A stretch of 64,000 nt of DNA from NCBI GenBank assembly GCA_965112155.1, contig OZ218099.1. The stretch is one strand, 5' to 3'. A program made the translations under genes and the position numbers. The notes under the pieces were generated by a model that ran no database searches, was not told where the DNA came from, and saw only the letters and a list, made by a program, of their open reading frames with translations. Source of the stretch: Podarcis liolepis. Taxonomy: Eukaryota. Below, piece after piece: positions 8,168-30,501 of this stretch; the stretch's first letter is position 1; every line of letters begins with the position of its first letter.

Positions 8168-8375
8168 GTCCAGTAGCATCTTAGAAATCAATTAAGTTTG
8201 TTCTGGGTATAAGCTTTTGTGTGCATGCACACTTCTTCAGATACAAAGTTGATCTGAAGAAGTGTGCATGTACATATACCCAGCTTATACCCAGAACAAA
8301 CTTGGTCTCTAATTTTTGGGACAATTTAAAATTTATTTATTTCAACCGCGTCAGACCAACACAGCTACCTACCTG
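8168..8375. mobile_element. Degenerate inverted Penelope-type terminal fragment with decayed hammerhead cores
   Basis: Same family as 19782-20174. Inverted arms surround ~8245-8251. GAAA is mutated in both arms. Confidence 0.75.
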
Positions 8376-8448
8376 CACCTTGGAAATATTTTATATTGAA
8401 AGGCGAGGTATGAGTCAATAATGAAAGCAAATATTCTTTTACATTTTC

Positions 8449-14579: not shown

Positions 14580-14969
<390 letters not shown>

Positions 14970-16463
14970 TCAGACTCAGCCAATCATCAAACAGGCAAGA
15001 CCCAAAAAGTCCAACTCAATGTTGGCCTACGGAAGTATGCAACTTAAAGTGGCATACATACATTTACTTGTGGGTCCTGTATTTTGAAAGCACAGGCAAA
15101 GACATTGTATGGCACTGTTAGTAGCCACATGTTTGTCTGGCAGATATCTCGGAAACTGGCGGCACTGCCACTATGTGTTTGCATGAAGTGCTGCACTTTG
15201 CTGGCCCAAAAGTTCTGTTCTGACAAGATTTCTCAGCATTTACAATTAGAATGAGCTCAAAAGAATGACGCAGCGATGAGATACATCAGGTATAACTTCT
15301 GCACTTCATCACAGGCCTTCTGTTTGGATGCAGTGTGAAATCCATTGGAACAATTTTGGAACTCTCATATCACTCTCATATCATATTTTGATATAAAGAT
15401 TAGATTCTGTGTTTAGAGAGAAAGCTGATGAGCTGTTTTACACCTGCGCTAGGACCTCTTTCAAGTTGCAATGCCCAGGATAACAGTGTTCAATTCATCT
15501 TGGAGCATCTCATCAGAACAGAAGGCTGGCCATGGCATTAGGCTGTACTTCAGAGGCAAGTCTAACCAGGCATTCATTTCAGAGTATAATCACATTAAAT
15601 CTCAACACTGGTTTTGGAGTATTATTAGTAACTTTTTAAAATGTGAGATTATATAGTATACTGTAATAAAAAATAATAATGCCATGTTGTTTCTGGCATT
15701 AACTATACAAAAGGAAAGTGGCAGAGCTCTCTGTTACTCTGAGGTAAATCTTTCACCACCTGCAATTTTTCCCTCAAAAAAGTTGCCACTTTGCTTGACA
15801 GGAGATAAGTACCAATCCTTAATTTTAATAGCCGTTATAAACCAGTTTTCTTATCAGACAATTAAATTTAAATTGATGCTGAATATTATGTTGACACATT
15901 TTATAGCAATTCAGTAAATTCTTTACATTTTCATTTGAAAGTATTTTGAACCTGCGGGTATATAATCCCTGCAAGTTTTCTTGAGTCTGAATAGATAAAG
16001 TGATGTGTTTTATTGGGCTGACTTCCAATGGTGGACAGATTCCATTTTCATTACATGAACATATATATAAATAGTTCAGAATAAACAGCATTTTTGTACT
16101 CTTTCACTTTAGCAATTCCTTACATGATTGTGAACTCAAGTGTGTCTACAGGATTCTTGCCCCATTTCACAGGTCCTCACTCACTTGCATCTGTTAATTT
16201 CTACTGCTAGAGGGCTTGGAGAATTTTAATTCTCGTTTGACAGTATGTATGAAAATTTTCTATGGAGAATATTTAAGGCAAGGGTTTCTCAAACTTTGTT
16301 TCTTATCAAATCTGATAGGCACACTACAGGTGACTAACGTGCTCACACATTTGCATTTGTCTGCTAACAGCTACAGACAACAGGGGCAATGTGTAATGAG
16401 TGGTTTGAACACTGCAGCCAAAGTTTTACATATTTATAGAAGGTTTATAGATTACCAGTGAGG

Positions 16464-16464
<1 letters not shown>

Positions 16465-16514
<50 letters not shown>
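16465..16514. repeat. (ATT)n microsatellite
   Basis: Read directly from the sequence. Confidence 0.95.
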
Positions 16515-16517
<3 letters not shown>

Positions 16518-17158
16518 GATTTAACTCATTAAATGTTTATCATGATATCATATTGAAAAGTTGTTTTAATTCAAGGATTCTGAAGTAAGCTGAATACGTT
16601 AAATTTGAAGTTGTGATGCTAAACCCATGTGGGACTTTGCTTCTTAATTTATGAACATTTAGGTTTCAACAGATCAAGGTGTAATTTAGTCAAAGTGATC
16701 CAATTTTGCTTTCCTATCAAAATCATGTGGAGCTGGGTATTGTTTGAAACCCCATATAATTTCTTTCTGAACACTGCAATTGAAAATCTGTTCCACAGTC
16801 ACAAAATATGCCTGTTGCATAGTTTATGTCTGAGCTGGAAGACGTTTACGGTCTAGCCTGTAACAAAAGTAACTTAATTCTGATCAGAATGCCTGGAGTA
16901 AGTTCTCTACCACTTCCCATCGAAACAAACAGCACATTATTTCTGCAGTCCCATAACAAACATTTATGTATGTATAAGCATAGCCATTTCATTTTACAAG
17001 ACATTACTACTACTCCGTCACTGAATTTTGAAGTCAGCCAGCCAATCCCAAACAGGAGTAAACAGGCAGGGGTGAATATTCCGCGCCCCCCCCCCACAGT
17101 GGATAATTGCATATTTCAACATGTATTTCGTGGCATCAAGCTTTATTAAAGAATTCAC

Positions 17159-17242
17159 CGTTTCGAAAACAGTAAATTCTTTATAAAGTTGTTCTTTAAA
17201 AATCATTTTAAAGCGAAGGAAGTTAGTCTTGTGACACAAAAA
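17159..17242 (-). CDS. GABRB2: Candidate cassette exon, 84 nt: FLCHKTNFLRFKMIFKEQLYKEFTVFET
   Basis: Acceptor gtatttgttttgcag|, TTTAAC branch-like motif about 40 nt upstream, donor ACG|gtgaat. Phase 0-0, no stop, several CpGs retained. I recognise no homologue. Confidence 0.45.
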
Positions 17243-18164
17243 CTGCAAAACAAATACGGCATTTTCAATTACATCCAAGGTTAAAGAACAGGAGCACTGG
17301 TTAATCTGAACAGCTATACTGGGGGTGGTGGGTTGGTTGGATGGGGTGAGTCACACAAGCAGGGTAGCAAAGCTATTTTAAAGTTTCATTTTCCATTTCC
17401 AGTCAGAGTCCAGACCTCAGAAGTTAAGCCAGTCTTCAGCCTTCTACACACTTCAGGTAAAATGGAACTGTGCACTTGGCCAGAGATAAATTTGCTTGAA
17501 TGTAAAATAGGGGTTGGTGTATTCTGACAAGGTCACTTTACAGAATATTGAGGGTATGAAACACTGAGAAAAAAGTGCCTGGTAATAAATATAAATCAAA
17601 TTCTCAAATGGCCAGCTTTGGAGTCTTCTATGGCTGCTGCGGAGATGCCATTAACGGTTGCTGCAATGTGAATAACTTGTCACACACCCAAAGAATTTAG
17701 GAGAAAAACAGCATATAAGCAATTTAGTATTACTCTTTTTTTCTTGTCAGATGTTTTTCTGCTGTTATCAGACTCCTTGTCTGATAACACCACAGTTTGA
17801 GAAGGCTGGAGGTCTCTACACCTTTTCCAAAGAGACATTGGAAATTACTACATAGCCGTAAATTAGTAATGGATGAACCTCCCAATTGATTTACTGTATA
17901 GCAGTTAGAAAGTGATTGCACATGTCTTCAAGCTTTTCCCCATTGGAAATTGGTCTACCTTTCATTTCCGAAACAGGAAATGCACAAGGTTATGATAAAG
18001 GATAAAAGGATGAAAAGCAAATTGACCTGATTTTTGGATCTGAAGTGAAGTTTTAGGAAGGCAACTGAGAGCATCATTGCAATACAGCAGGTTCACCCAT
18101 CCCTAATGAAAATGTATGCTTATAACTATATAGAAGCTTACAATACAACAGTGAAACACATTAA

Positions 18165-18512
18165 TTCTGCAGGGCGCCTTTTATCCAGACGGATCCCAAA
18201 GCGCTTTACAGATTTTTAGAAAGCGACATCACTTCACCAACAAGTGCAATCACCTCTCAGGCGAAATGGGGTGGCTATCTAACATCGCCAAACAACGCAT
18301 TGTATTTTAGTACAGGAAATGAAGAATGCTGTAGCCAATTAAAACTATGCAGTGGGTGGGTGAGTGGTGGGAATGGTTCAGAAGGTAGAAGACAACTTAG
18401 AATACAACCAAAACTTGGACAGGAGCCTGGCATTAAGATGCCAGTTCTTGCAAAAAGTGCCGTGGGATCTTTAATTGACCACTAATGGTCCAAGATCTCA
18501 CTAGTAAGTCTC
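18165..18512 (-). mobile_element. AmnSINE1 (DeuSINE) remnant: Deu domain and 3' tail
   Basis: Minus strand reads gtggtcaattaaagatcccacggcacttttt...attcttcatttcctgtactaaa...ggtgaagtgat...tgtaaagcgctttgggatcc...gataaaaggcgc, collinear with the AmnSINE1 consensus as I recall it. Confidence 0.8.
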
Positions 18513-18547
18513 TAAGGATAGAATCATTAGAAAACAATAAAATATAC

Positions 18548-18598
18548 CTTTGTTGAATACATTTCTGGACAATGATATGTGCCAATTATTCTTCTGTC
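18548..18598 (-). CDS. GABRB2: Cassette exon, 51 nt, chicken-type beta2L: DRRIIGTYHCPEMYSTK
   Basis: Acceptor ttttattaacttacag| and donor AAG|gtatat; phase 0-0, 17 codons, ends in the S-x-K PKC consensus. This fits the published description of chicken beta2L (a 51-nt exon with a putative PKC site). Confidence 0.8.
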
Positions 18599-19832
18599 CT
18601 GTAAGTTAATAAAATCAAGACCGGTTTCCATAGAGAAAAGGCAGCTGTTAGCTTTCATTAAAAATTAATGTACTATAGGCTATTATCATAAACGATGCAC
18701 TTTAATTAAAAGCACAGGGCAATCTGAGCCAACAATCAGCAGAAGTATATCCTTGGTTTAGAGGTGCTGTTGTTGTCTTGGCCCTGACATTGTAGACAAC
18801 ACAAATTTGTAATGGAAATGTACAGCCCCCGCACACACAAAAACCTGGTCATTTTTGACCAAGAAAGGAACGATGACATGTAAACGTTAGTTAGGAGAGA
18901 GGGGAACAACATGGGGATTTAAAAGGTGGTAGGGGGAAGGAAGTCTGGATGCTGATGTGGTTCTTCAGCCAAATAACAGGATTATTGATAGGGCAAGACA
19001 GACTTTATGTATAAAAAAAATCCACAGGGCAGGGAAAATAGGTAAACATGTGAAAGGGGACAAGTAACAAAAACAGAAGATGAATAGTGCAAAATATTAA
19101 CTTGAACATAATAATCATGGAGGTATCAAACAATCACTTTAAATGATAACATGATTAAGTGATAAAAATAGAATTCACTGTTGGGCCTAAAATCAGCTTG
19201 CAAAATGTAGACCACAGAGCATGGGACATTGCTGACCCTCCCAGCTCAAATAGCAGATAGACCTACATGGCAGGTGATTCCCAATATCTAGAAACTCCAA
19301 AATGATGGCTCTCTATAGGTGTTGACTCTTTAATATCAGCAGCACACAAATCTAACAAATTATTCAGGTATAAAATAATTATACCTATATAATAAAGTGA
19401 CAGTTTTTATTTAGTGGTTACATTAGTAGCTTTCTTGCTTTAAAAAGCAGCTTTATTCTTGAGATGCTTCTGTAGTGCACATTTATTATTTCAAACATGC
19501 ATCAAACTGACACAGTAAAGCCTTTCAGCCCTTCAATTCCATTGCCTGCAAGCAACTCACTTTTAAAACATGGACAAACGAAGCTGTCAATACAGTCATA
19601 CTTTTTTATTATTATCTCTGATTCTAAAATCAAATGGAACGAAGAAAACAATGTGTGAGAGCACTAATGCAACATTGTCAAAATTGGCCCAATTATTGGA
19701 TGGATTGTCTTATCCATTCAGCATTTCACCCCTAACAAAGCCCTTCAGTAAAAGATCTGACTGATCATTTCAAATCAGTATAAAAAATTTTTCTTCCAGT
19801 AGCACCTTAAAGACCAACTAAGTTAGTTCTTG

Positions 19833-19870
19833 GTATGAGCTTTCGTGTGCATGCACACTTCTTCAGATAC
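19833..19870 (-). ncRNA. Mirror copy of the minimal hammerhead, sense to the GABRB2 pre-mRNA
   Basis: Exact reverse complement of 20045-20082. Confidence 0.75.
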
Positions 19871-20044
19871 ACTGAAACAGAAGTTGCCAGATCCTTCTAT
19901 ATAGTGAGAAGGTGGGGAGGGGTGTTACTCAGAAGGGTGGTGGGAATGGGAGATAGGCCTATCTCCCATTCCCACCACCCTTCTGAGTAACACCCCTCCC
20001 CACCTTCTCACTATATAGAAGGATCTGGCAACTTCTGTTTCAGT

Positions 20045-20082
20045 GTATCTGAAGAAGTGTGCATGCACACGAAAGCTCATAC
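20045..20082 (+). ncRNA. Minimal type I hammerhead ribozyme motif
   Basis: GUAU CUGAAGA A GUGUGC-AU-GCACAC GAAA GC UC^AUAC. It has stem I GUAU/AUAC, the core CUGANGA and GAAA, and a palindromic AGCU stem III. Confidence 0.75.
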
Positions 20083-22479
20083 CAAGAACTAACTTAGTTG
20101 GTCTTTAAGGTGCTACTGGAAGAAATTTTTTTTATTTTGACTATGGCAGACCAACACGGCTACCTATCTACTACTCAAATCAGTATGTCTTCCTTACTGT
20201 CCTCCACTCTACTCTTCTTTTCCATGTCCGCCCTTCCCTTTTCTCAATTTATTTAAGACTGCTCCTTCTGTCAAAACCTTCTGCTTTCCTTTTCCTGCTA
20301 CCTTCTCAATTCCTTTTCTTCACCTGTGCTGTATAGTCTTATTCTAAACCTACTGCACTAGGCCATTTAGCCTATGCTGGACATGGATTGCTCAGTCAAT
20401 GGCAGTCAGAGAACCTTAGGATCAAAGCAGTTCAGTCCAGGGCAGCAAATGACTCTTTAGTTTGCTTGCCTTGTTGTTCTACAACAGTCAGTTCTTCCAG
20501 CTACTCTACAGCTATCACAACAATATACTGTAGATTATCCGGCCTCTCATTTTGTGCACTTGACCCATTTTAAGATTAATAAATTTTCTGAGAAATTGTT
20601 TCATCAATGTACAATTTACTATATAATTTTAACAACATCTGAAATAAAGCTGACTGAAATTAGATCTGCGTTTACAAATGTGCACCAATAGGTGTGTGTA
20701 ATTGCAACCCACTATTTGCCCAAATGATACCACTGCTTCTGTCAAAGCATTATGCAGTTGTACTTTTCTATACTGTCTGAACTGCTTTATTTAAACATTC
20801 TATTTGTGATAGCTGTATCGAAATTATTCTCTATAAAAAGATCTTGAACAACAACAACAAAAAAGTACTTTCTGAGAATTTTTCTGTCATGGCGAAAGCT
20901 AATTATTTAGCTCTCTGAAAGAATTGGAAGGCAGGCTTTCAGATTATGTAAGATAACTGATGTATCTTAAACAAGCAGAAGCTGGATACACACTGTCCTT
21001 GTGCAAATTAAAGATGGCATTCTGAGATTGTTGCTATGGACAGAGAGCTTTACACAGCTGACTTGACCTTTTTTCTGATGTCACCAGGAATAGCACTACA
21101 GACTGTATGGAGAAGTTACCTTGTGACCTTTTCTGTAAGAGGCCACAGGCAAAGTCTGCTGCCACCACTGCCTCACATTACCTTCAAAGCAAATTCTTAC
21201 ATAATGCTAATGGAGAGATGGAAAACAATGGCATGCACACTGCTGGTTTATAGAAAATTCTTACACAACAGCAATGCATAGTTATAAATAGTTGCTTTTA
21301 GGCACTTTCTTTTTTAAAAAATACAAATTCAATGCGGAAAATATGGATTAAAGTAGTCATTTATTGCAGACTGCTTTAATTTTGGCAACTCTCTAAACCT
21401 GCAAAGTATGCCGTATAGATTTTGACCACATTCTAAACCAGAGCTGGCTAACCTATAGCCCTGCAGTGCCCATTATCCCTGACTGTTTGCCATGCTTGTT
21501 GAAGCTGATAGGAGCTGGAGTCTAACAGCATCTGGAGGGTTACAGGTTTTCCATTCCTGTTTTGAACTGTAGCTTAACCATAAATATTTACATGGTGGAA
21601 AGTCATGGATACTTAAGCATATCAAAGCTTCATGATATCCTAAACAGTAGGAATAACTCAAGATAAAGGCAAACACTTAGTAGGATTCAACTAATGAGTG
21701 CTATAAGCAGGAACTCTGTGCAAGGACTTCCTCTAGCACAATGGGGTCCCCCACCCTCCAAAAGGATGTCCCTGGAAATTGGCTGGGGGGGGGGTTACTT
21801 TCCCAATACTCAATTTTTAAAGGCACTGGAATGTCAAAGGAAATGAAATTTCCTTTATGAATTCCCCATCCCTGTCATTCACAGTTTGCCACCTGACACT
21901 GATATAGCATCATCATACAAATACATTTGCACTTGTTGCACTTTTTCATTGGCATATTTGTGGAAACTGTAATGAGTGGACCAGCTCTATGCTACATTTA
22001 TTTCATTTGAATTTTTTGTTGTCATCGTGGGAGTGCAAAAGGGATGCAAACTTGATTGGTAGCTGGAGATTTAGTACTGAGCAGAACTGGTTCTATCTCC
22101 TTTGTGGCCAGGAAATCGGTAGCCTTTATACTGCAATTCTCTTTCCACTTTCTCGTGGACCTATGAAACTACTGAATGACACTGACAGCTGAAATGGGAG
22201 CCAAGAGCAACACAAAAAAGCTCTCTCACCATGTTCTTCAATCCTACCTTCACTAGTAAACTAAAACACAATCCTGGCTAAAGTCCCCCCAGGCTTGCTC
22301 TTTCTTAATTATGCCCCTCTCCCACCTCTTATTCTGGCTAGGGAAATTTAACAAAATGACCTGGAACCAGTTGCCTGAGATGGAGACACTTTTCAAACAA
22401 CATAGAAATACAAGAATACATGATACTAAATAAAAACACAAACTGATACCCCCCAAAAAAACATTTAAAAGGACATATA

Positions 22480-22720
22480 CAGTGGTACCTTGGTTTATGA
22501 ACTTAATCCATTCAAGATGTCCGTTCTTAAACTGAAACTGTTATTAAACCAAGGCGTGCTTTCCCTAATGAAGCCTCCCTCTGCCGGTGCCCTTCCACTG
22601 CTCAGATTCCGTTCTTAGACCGAGGTAAGGTTCGCAAACCAGGACACTACTTCCGGTTTTGCGGCGTTCGTAAACCGAATCATTTGTAAACAGGACTGTT
22701 CTTAAACTGAGGTACCACTG
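22480..22720. mobile_element. Tc1/mariner (Tigger-like) MITE
   Basis: TA|CAGTGGTACCT...AGGTACCACTG|TA. Confidence 0.85.
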
Positions 22721-23803
22721 TAATGTTAATCAGCCAAAGGCCTGGTTAAAGAGAAACTGGCGCCTAGTTCCTAAAGATATGTAATGAAGGCACCAGGTAA
22801 GCCTTAGTTGGTTGTTTCTGAGAGAATGAACAGGCTTCCAGGTTTTCAAGCACGCTGTCCGTAGATATGTGACATAATACAGAGACTACTGAGCCAAAGT
22901 TTATCATTATATGCAGAGTACTCTTAAATCACAGCCAACATGTCCACATAATATACCTTATCTAAAAGTGCAGATGCTGGCCACATCAGTTCAGACTGTA
23001 TTCTGAAGAGAGGTTTGCCTCATAGAATCAATAATGGAAGTTTTATTAACATATATTGAAATGATTTAATTGTCAAAGGAAGTGATTTCTATATGAACAC
23101 TTCTACAAAATAGCAGATCCTATTTGTGTATTATTGGACAAAGATATTGTGGGATAAAAGTTTAGACAAAAATAATAATAATGAGTTTATAAGTGAGTAG
23201 ACTTGAAAAACAAATAAATCTCAGGCAGTAAACTAAAAAGAAGTTTGCTAGTAGCAAAGGCAGTTGAACTTTTTCAACTTTTGCAACCAGAAAGAACATG
23301 TGCAAATCTGTACAATTATGTAAAAGAACTGAATCTTGGCACAGAATTCTAGGCTCCTTCTACTAAACGCTGCTTAGTAAAACTCCTTCATTCTCATGTA
23401 AATACTGTTGCTTACTAGGTTGTTATAAATTACTACTGCTGATATTACTGTTGCATCTTCATATAAGATAATAAGAGCATGCAAGGTGCATCAAACAGGT
23501 TAGAGCAGTAGCAAGAGAGAAGAGATCCCAAAACAGGAAATAAGGGAAGCTCAGAATGTTAAATCTCAGATAGGCATAAGCCCCAAAGAAGCTATCCAGA
23601 AAAAATTGCAGTGCTAAGAAATTATTGATAAATGATTTACATACTCTGCATGGAAAATGAAGAGAAAAAAATATTGCTCACTGAAGGAAACAGAGTTGCA
23701 CAATACCTGGAACAAAGCAAATCCAAGATGGTATGATATCCAAGCAGTGTGAAAAGTTTTATGGATTAAGATTTCATGTTGGCTTCAAGTATGAATGTGT
23801 ATG

Positions 23804-24069: not shown

Positions 24070-24700
24070 GAAGGAGCCATAGTTCCCACTAAAACGAGGA
24101 ATAAGTTAAAATCGTGACTCCATACTAGAACCTTAGCAGTCAACTCCATAATAATAAAACAAATGGAGTATGTGCTATATTCACAAAGGGCTAGACCAAC
24201 ATGGTTTAAAGCTAAACCTACTAAATTAATTCATAAATTGTCATTGCAACATAGATTATTTATATAAAAATTCTTTTGTTGCTTTTCTACTAAAAGAATT
24301 CAAAGTGACTTACAATGTAATGGATGATGAGAAAACAGTGGATATTTTATCTGGGTTTTAGTAAAGCATTTCATACAGCACTATACAATATCTTATGGTT
24401 AGAAAGCCAACATAAGATGTCTTGGACAATTAGTACAATCAAATGGATCAAAAACTGGCTATCTAACCGTATTAAGAGAGTAATCGTAACTGGCAGTCCA
24501 TCTAGATGGGGAGAGATTTCCAGTGGGATCCAGGGATCGCAATTCGGTCCCATTTTGTTTTATATCTTTATAAAAGATCTGGAAGACAAAGTAGAGAATA
24601 TGCTAAATAAGTCTTTTGGCTTCTACTAATTAGGGAATGGTGAGCAGAGCTAGAACTAACATAGTAGTTGTAAAATAACTCTAAATACTTCTTTGAAATT
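24070..24700 (+). mobile_element. Ancient CR1/L3 LINE RT remnant overlapping the beta2L exon in antisense
   Basis: ORF 24324-24629 reads YLGFSKAFH...[42 protein letters not shown], i.e. the CR1 motifs DFSKAFD, W..NWL..R.QRV and GVPQGS.LGP.LFNIFINDL. A QHG remnant lies near 24197. Outer boundaries are approximate. Confidence 0.85.
24468..24578 (-). CDS. GABRB2: Cassette exon, 111 nt, orthologue of the mammalian beta2L exon: [37 protein letters not shown]
   Basis: Acceptor tttgtcttccag| and donor ACG|gttaga; phase 0-0, no stop. Aligns with the human 38-aa beta2L insert as I recall it ([38 protein letters not shown]). Confidence 0.9.

Positions 24701-30225: not shown

Positions 30226-30501
<276 letters not shown>

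What the first reader, a model, noticed from the sequence alone, without database searches (positions are those of the whole stretch)
18165..18512. AmnSINE1 remnant starting ~35 nt downstream of the 51-nt exon donor
Seen: about 350 bp collinear with the AmnSINE1 Deu domain and tail, in the gene's sense orientation. Known: AmnSINE1 is an ancient amniote SINE whose surviving copies are often constrained, and some are brain enhancers (near Satb2 and Fgf8). Inference: this copy may be an exapted splicing regulator or enhancer. It would be a second ancient retroelement associated with a cassette exon in this intron.
Basis: partly seen in the sequence, partly recalled or inferred. Interest (0 to 1): 0.7.

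Follow-up and report, generated by a model that had tools for sequence, protein, structure and literature searches.

The report
Old SINE hairpins beside GABA exon
A remnant of an ancient jumping element sits just behind a small optional exon of a lizard GABA-receptor gene; its back half has changed little in a distant species and is predicted to fold into two RNA hairpins that likely help control the use of that exon.

Summary
Observation confirmed. 18165-18512 is a 5'-truncated Deu-type SINE on the minus (gene-sense) strand of a lizard GABRB2 intron, starting 35 nt below the donor of the 51-nt cassette exon (18548-18598). A profile of five dispersed copies from the same genome hits the window once (E 1.3e-10), and a full-length 5S-headed relative is collinear. 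The name AmnSINE1 is likely but rests partly on recall, as no Dfam search was possible.

The exon is spliced in two other species, invariant in 28 of 28 sauropsid proteins and probably older than amniotes, so the SINE likely landed beside an existing exon. Constraint is uneven. In a distant species only the SINE's 3' half aligns (about 96% in 18165-18284); the Deu core does not. That conserved part folds on the sense strand into two hairpins (z about -6), and the six changes there break no pair (P 0.01-0.07). The window's densest NOVA-type YCAY cluster lies just 5' of it.

Best reading: a co-opted pre-mRNA element that tunes this exon (0.4). Function is untested, and human GABRB2 appears to lack an annotated copy.

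The parts
18548..18598 (-). 51-nt cassette exon of GABRB2 (DRRIIGTYHCPEMYSTK, TM3-TM4 loop)
   Evidence: splice junctions seen as loose ends in organisms C and D, 0 differences in the exon contigs; peptide 17/17 in 28 of 28 proteins
18165..18512 (-). 5'-truncated Deu-type SINE remnant (likely AmnSINE1): Deu domain plus 3' tail, no detectable head
18350..18512 (-). 5' part (Deu core); clearest family motif, but 18350-18504 did not align at 80% in organism D (170 other letters lie there)
18349..18378 (-). Cluster of 6 YCAY in 30 nt, 170-195 nt below the donor, partly in a ~15-nt insertion against the family profile; candidate NOVA site
18214..18284 (-). Predicted hairpin 1 (26 bp with bulges, -27.8 kcal/mol, z -4.9 sense, -2.3 antisense)
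18165..18213 (-). SINE tail stem-loop (17 bp, -21.7 kcal/mol, z -3.7); the same fold is predicted for the paralogous tail L005
18080..18349 (-). Block that aligns in distant organism D (20 other letters and 11 gap letters in 270 nt); includes 85 nt beyond the SINE tail
18505..18547 (-). Donor-proximal intron, conserved in D (3 differences in the 73-nt piece 18505-18577)
24468..24578 (-). 111-nt cassette exon (orthologue of mammalian exon 10), spliced to the 51-nt exon in C and D
24321..24626 (+). Reverse-transcriptase remnant (CR1/L3 type by the published annotation) that hosts the 111-nt exon antisense
   Evidence: Pfam RVT_1 E 0.0021, below cut-off; PMC2741204 section 5
30244..30498 (-). Upstream constitutive coding exon (TM2-TM3 and loop start; visible part)
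14580..14927 (-). Last coding exon of GABRB2

Best explanation
This is a 5'-truncated Deu-type SINE (likely AmnSINE1) lying in sense orientation 35 nt below the GABRB2 51-nt cassette exon, whose conserved 3' half is predicted to fold into two hairpins in the pre-mRNA and likely acts, with the YCAY cluster beside it, as an intronic element that tunes inclusion of that exon in neurons. Shown: SINE homology, position, exon splicing in two species, low divergence of the 3' half. Predicted: the two hairpins. Inferred: the exon came first (related insert in a frog) and the SINE inserted next to it. The head and Deu core then decayed while the self-folding 3' end was kept by selection, and a short C/A-rich expansion made a cluster that NOVA would bind to promote inclusion. 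The hairpins would compact the intron or keep the cluster accessible.
For: Distant organism D: one 1062-nt contig spans 17595-18577 and aligns at 80% or more in only 4 pieces (453 of 983 nt). The longest is 18080-18349; within 18165-18284 there are 5 substitutions and 1 gap in 120 nt. Coding junction pieces of D differ at 5 of 83 nt (read), about 18% of third positions. Close organism C: at most 2 differences in 348 nt against 18 in 663 and 13 in 765 in the flanks (Fisher P 0.018 and 0.17, pooled 0.047). Fold: 18165-18284 has z -6.55 sense against -3.3 antisense and ranks 2nd of 254 intron windows, after a perfect palindrome. Both hairpins keep p=1.0 in 3 of 3 folding contexts. In D 1 of 5 substitutions is at a paired site (3.4 expected, P 0.03-0.04) and it keeps a G-U pair; 0 break a pair (1.5 expected, P 0.07); with the gap, Fisher P 0.009-0.016. 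Of 5 other family copies folded over the same segment, 4 show no such stability. YCAY: the only cluster of 6 or more per 30 nt in the 64-kb window, both strands; 3 such in 400 kb of neighbouring strand-bases; at most 3 per 30 nt in 12 of 12 other copies. NOVA bound to downstream-intron YCAY clusters promotes inclusion, and Gabrg2 exon 9 is a validated target (PMC3737533, passages). The element has 8 CpG, o/e 0.47 against 0.20 for the intron.
Against: No functional data. Only one distant species was informative, from RNA contigs, with no DNA run; X19 and X20 gave nothing usable. No two-sided compensatory change was seen between orthologues, and covariation across 5 paralogous tails was no better than shuffles (246/500). 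The tail fold is shared with L005, so folding is at least partly inherited and not proof of selection; 1 of 5 other copies (L047) also folds well (z -4.1). A small predicted hairpin at 18297-18283 is broken by gaps in D. The long-range duplex closing the block has p=0 in 2 of 3 contexts. The YCAY cluster lies in the part that did not align in D, is mostly CCAC (1 of its 6 motifs is UCAY), was found post hoc, and spacing alone predicts NOVA sites poorly (PMC3737533, passage). Up to 4 differences near the ends of the D piece are not listed by the tool.
Confidence: 0.4

Rival explanations
1. DNA-level enhancer for GABRB2 or a neighbour in the GABA-receptor cluster, like the mammalian AmnSINE1 enhancers; the hairpins are an inherited by-product.
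For: Precedent: AS021 is homologous to the 3' half (257-570) of the AmnSINE1 consensus and is a conserved brain enhancer (PMC3234267, passages). The conserved block here is also the 3' half. CpG are retained.
Against: Substitutions in D avoid paired sites within the block, and the fold is stronger on the sense strand. The Deu core, where most predicted factor sites lie (PMC3234267), is the part that did not align.
Confidence: 0.2
2. Mostly neutral relic: low divergence reflects chance, a locally low mutation rate or general constraint around a conserved cassette exon.
For: 57-72% identity to other copies, like any old copy. The C comparison is borderline (P 0.02-0.17). Two small non-SINE pieces also align in D (17776-17826, 17595-17653). 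No annotated human copy.
Against: A 270-nt block at about 90% (96% in its core), separated from the exon by 155 nt that do not align, in a species where 530 of 983 nt fail the 80% cut.
Confidence: 0.15
3. ADAR-recruiting stem (editing inducer element) acting on the exon or its splice sites.
For: [quoted passage not shown] In D, 4 of the 16 listed substitutions in the block read A>G on the sense strand.
Against: The exon contigs of C and D show 0 differences. C does not show those A>G changes where it was listed. The stems are short and bulged. RNA contigs without matched DNA cannot tell editing from species difference.
Confidence: 0.1
4. Hairpin 1 is an intronic microRNA or other small-RNA precursor.
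For: 65-nt hairpin whose 3' arm has no listed substitution in D.
Against: No Rfam match at these coordinates among 35 weak matches in 16000-21000. The stem has only 26 bp and a 4-nt loop, short of a typical Drosha substrate (recalled), and the second hairpin is equally conserved.
Confidence: 0.05
5. The 51-nt exon is itself the exonized 5' part of the same SINE.
For: A local alignment to L026 drifts on to 18616, across the exon. Spacing is compatible, and P is 0.035-0.14 in 7 of 12 anchored comparisons.
Against: Profile hits stop at 18524. The anchored test gave 4 of 25 shuffles as good. No 5S head upstream. A frog isoform has a related 18-aa insert (8 of 18 identical, P 0.0012), which would make the exon older than an amniote SINE. 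The tests have low power: 0 of 8 control pairs of known copies reached P<0.1.
Confidence: 0.07

Closest known systems
AmnSINE1 (DeuSINE superfamily) and its exapted copies such as AS021 near Satb2 (PMC3234267, passages; PMC4824008, passages)
   Same: Deu domain plus tail; old, diverged, low-copy; the constrained part is the 3' half; neural gene context.
   Different: Constraint is seen in reptile-type data, with no annotated human copy in GABRB2. It lies 35 nt from a splice donor in sense orientation, and the signal points to RNA structure and not to a distal DNA enhancer. The head is missing.
NOVA intronic splicing enhancer of Gabrg2 exon 9 (PMC3737533, passages)
   Same: GABA-A subunit, cassette exon in the large intracellular loop (recalled), YCAY cluster in an intron near the exon.
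   Different: The cluster here arose inside a SINE remnant, is CCAC-rich, and its conservation and binding are unshown.
Gabra-3 editing inducer element (PMC3479170, abstract)
   Same: Conserved intronic duplex a short way downstream of a GABA-A receptor exon.
   Different: No editing site is shown here; the stems are shorter and SINE-derived.
LINE3-embedded GABRB2 exon 10 (PMC2741204, section 5)
   Same: Old retroelement tied to a cassette exon in the same intron.
   Different: There the exon lies inside the element, antisense; here the element is sense and beside the exon.

Membership tests
DeuSINE superfamily | Central Deu domain shared with 5S- or tRNA-headed SINEs | tested here: met
   Collinear with the 5S-headed SINE L026 and with own-genome copies. 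That this shared core is 'the Deu domain' is recalled; no reference consensus was available.
DeuSINE superfamily | Interspersed, multi-copy | tested here: met
   11 other own-genome loci on 7 contigs share the core by alignment.
DeuSINE superfamily | LINE-type 3' tail with stem-loop | tested here: met
   The tail matches L005 and L026 and folds as a stem-loop.
AmnSINE1 | 5S rRNA-derived head plus tRNA-derived segment (570-bp consensus, PMC3234267) | tested here: inconclusive
   No head upstream of this copy, which fits 5' truncation. Among 11 own copies only L048 shows a trace of 5S (E 0.45).
AmnSINE1 | Best hit to the Dfam/Repbase AmnSINE1 model over AmnSINE2, LmeSINE1 and DeuSINE | not testable with these tools
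   No such library is held; the founding paper PMC1484453 was not held.
Exapted AmnSINE1 element | Purifying selection at the orthologous site | tested here: inconclusive
   Met for the 3' half in one distant species, borderline in one close species, not for the Deu core; indirect negative in human.
Exapted AmnSINE1 enhancer | Enhancer activity in reporter or chromatin data | not testable with these tools
   No such data.
NOVA intronic splicing enhancer | Dense YCAY cluster in the downstream intron | tested here: met
   6 in 30 nt, 170-195 nt below the donor; mean unpaired probability 0.52-0.66.
NOVA intronic splicing enhancer | Cluster conserved across species | tested here: inconclusive
   Covered by a contig of close organism C with at most 2 differences; not aligned in D.
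NOVA intronic splicing enhancer | NOVA binding and NOVA-dependent inclusion | not testable with these tools
   Needs CLIP or a minigene.

The most novel reading that the evidence does not exclude
An AmnSINE1 copy co-opted as RNA, not DNA. In reptiles the retrotransposon's own 3' hairpins plus a NOVA cluster born inside it form the switch for a GABA-A receptor loop exon. Both cassette exons of this intron would then be steered by YCAY clusters inside old retroelements: the two best 45-nt clusters of the 15-kb intron lie 120-195 nt below the two donors.
Probability: 0.2. Interest if true: 0.75.

Novelty: new variant of a known kind. Interest (0 to 1): 0.5.

Why it matters
The exapted AmnSINE1 copies in the papers read here are DNA enhancers in mammals. 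A reptile copy kept for its RNA fold beside an invariant receptor exon would extend exaptation of this family to splicing control and to sauropsids. It would also give a small, directly testable element for the regulation of the beta2L 51-nt exon, reported from chicken. Searches of the held library found no paper with both GABRB2 and AmnSINE1 or with Gabrb2, Nova and YCAY; most subscription papers are not in that library.

Tried and rejected
- BLAST-type searches of the own genome with the element and with copy L048 found only the query; L026 found only 8 5S-like loci.
- Motif scan gave 18 matches against 10 for the reversed control. One is the window, 6 were kept as copies by eye and 11 were dropped as chance or unclear. 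L050 was dropped, as were L006 and L007 as body copies (tail motif only).
- The viral (1) and prokaryote (7) motif matches showed no similarity beyond the motif.
- A first pairwise alignment with lax scores was meaningless.
- The 106-codon open frame over the element has no protein relatives (2 candidates, none at E<=1).
- Rfam shows nothing at the element.
- Exon-from-SINE tests were inconclusive and underpowered.
- Tail covariation was not above shuffles.
- The long-range duplex 18335-18311 with 18105-18080 looked strong but vanished in wider contexts, and differences in its arms are not fully listed; not claimed.
- The permutation over 18110-18319 (P<=0.004 for paired sites) mixes block conservation with pair-level signal, so only the within-core test is relied on.
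- Runs X19 and X20 were uninformative. No raw reads were laid, so inclusion level and tissue are unknown.
- No earlier findings of the scan were returned.

Full report
Context. The window is G000:C2:44950001-45014000. It holds the 3' part of GABRB2 on the minus strand. The intron between the exon ending at 30244 and the last exon starting at 14927 contains two cassette exons. One is 111 nt (24468-24578); its peptide equals that in Podarcis and Lacerta isoforms, so the host is a lacertid-like lizard. The other is 51 nt (18548-18598). The 111-nt exon lies antisense in an RT remnant (Pfam RVT_1, E 0.0021, below cut-off); its human orthologue is annotated as LINE3 (PMC2741204, section 5 read). The 51-nt exon fits the chicken beta2L exon of Harvey 1994, which I saw only as a title in that paper's reference list.

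The observation. The element starts at 18512, 35 nt below the donor, in gene sense. BLAST finds no second copy. Motif searches gave 18 matches against 10 controls, 3 against 0, 3 against 0 and 2 against 0. Eleven other loci were kept as copies by alignment. A profile from five of them, without the window, hits the window once at 18498-18216 with E 1.3e-10. The 11-copy profile has no hit in 200 kb next door. One motif behind that set was composed partly from an alignment with the window and partly from recall, so the test is not fully independent. The tail matches L005. A metagenome record, L026, is a full-length SINE with a 5S head and runs collinear with the window to the tail. Its seeded alignment scores 169 against a window background of 76 +/- 13; its 3' part alone only ties for the best of 636 windows. 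AmnSINE1 is defined as 5S head, tRNA segment, Deu domain and tail (PMC3234267, passages), and other DeuSINEs share the domain (PMC4824008, passages; PMC5753468, passages). This copy has no detectable head and no reference model was available, so Deu-type is shown and AmnSINE1 is likely, partly from recall.

The exon. The 17 residues are identical in 28 of 28 proteins returned, all from birds, crocodilians, turtles, lizards and snakes. A second search returned 38 proteins, 11 of them new: 0 of 3 mammals carry the peptide, and 1 of 4 amphibians has a related 18-aa insert. That insert is 8 of 18 identical, P 0.0012, and is the only such case among the 10 inserts tested. RNA contigs of organisms C and D show the junctions 111-to-51 and 51-to-last exon, and D also upstream-exon-to-51, with no difference in the exon. 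The exon is therefore real and likely older than amniotes, on the evidence of one frog gene model. Tests of whether it derives from the SINE head were inconclusive and underpowered.

Constraint. Four runs were laid on 17300-19700; two were informative. In close organism C the element has at most 2 differences in 348 nt, against 18 in 663 and 13 in 765 in the flanks (P 0.018, 0.17, pooled 0.047). In distant organism D one contig spans 983 nt and aligns at 80% only at 18505-18577, 18080-18349, 17776-17826 and 17595-17653. Within the SINE, 18165-18284 has 5 substitutions and 1 gap and 18285-18310 is variable. The stretch 18350-18504 (Deu core and YCAY cluster) is bridged by 170 letters that did not align. 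The tool does not list differences near piece ends, so up to 4 more may lie there. For human, GABRB2 appears in a table of genes left after removing the AmnSINE1-containing ones, and nowhere else by symbol in that supplement (PMC12015672, passages and supplement search). This is indirect evidence of no annotated human copy; I did not open Table S1 itself. Birds and turtles could not be tested at DNA level.

Structure and motifs. The best-conserved 120 nt fold into two tandem hairpins, z -6.55 on the sense strand and -3.3 on the other. The segment is second of 254 intron windows after a perfect palindrome, and both hairpins are stable in 3 of 3 contexts. Of the six changes in D, five fall at unpaired sites and one turns C-G into U-G (P 0.03-0.04 for paired sites, 0.07 for broken pairs, 0.009-0.016 with the gap). 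Against this: there is no two-sided change between orthologues and no covariation across paralogous tails. The tail fold is shared with L005, and one of five other copies folds well too. A small hairpin is broken in D, and a closing duplex depends on context. Just 5' of the conserved block lies the densest YCAY cluster of the window (6 in 30 nt, 18378-18349). Such clusters are rare in neighbouring DNA (3 in 400 kb) and absent from 12 of 12 other copies. Its position fits the NOVA map for enhanced exons (PMC3737533, passages), but it is CCAC-rich, was found post hoc, and is not shown conserved beyond C.

Reading. Most likely the SINE inserted beside an existing neuronal cassette exon and its self-folding 3' half was retained as a pre-mRNA element that tunes inclusion, possibly together with NOVA (0.4). 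Rivals: DNA enhancer (0.2), near-neutral relic (0.15), editing inducer as in Gabra-3 (PMC3479170, abstract only; 0.1), exon born from the SINE (0.07), small-RNA precursor (0.05). No held paper joins GABRB2 with AmnSINE1 or with Nova and YCAY. Searches were seen as search listings except for the papers named above. The founding AmnSINE1 paper was not held, and published lists of conserved AmnSINE1 loci, which I could not see, may bear on novelty. Verdict: a real, partly constrained old SINE with a testable RNA-level hypothesis; interest 0.5.

Noticed in passing
window 19775-20140: Near-perfect palindrome, two 183-nt arms, 98% complementary, no spacer, about 1.2 kb upstream of the 51-nt exon in the pre-mRNA. 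It looks like a young head-to-head repeat and would be a strong dsRNA/ADAR substrate. A looser relative seems to lie at about 8180-8380 (by eye).
   Followed up: partly
window 24305-24349 (-): Second-best YCAY cluster of the intron (5 in 45 nt), 120-160 nt below the 111-nt exon donor, at the end of the RT remnant.
   Followed up: partly
window 18599-18628 (-): The 30 nt above the 51-nt exon translate identically (ETGLDFINLQ) in a sparrow and a skink gene model: a conserved acceptor region or an alternative 3' splice site.
   Followed up: no
window 17776-17826 and 17595-17653: Two small non-SINE pieces that align in distant organism D (2 of 51 and 7 of 59 differences); 17685-17804 folds with z -3.8.
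   Followed up: no
window 18522-18569 (-): The end of the 51-nt exon is predicted to pair weakly with its own donor region.
   Followed up: no
P0030: A frog GABRB2 isoform has an 18-aa insert related to the sauropsid 17-aa exon; two bats have a different 24-aa insert at the same junction.
   Followed up: partly
L047 (G000:C1:67186760-67189787): Another old copy of the same SINE family whose 3' segment also folds well (z -4.1).
   Followed up: no
window 22478-22722: Small element with 25-nt terminal inverted repeats, MITE-like.
   Followed up: no
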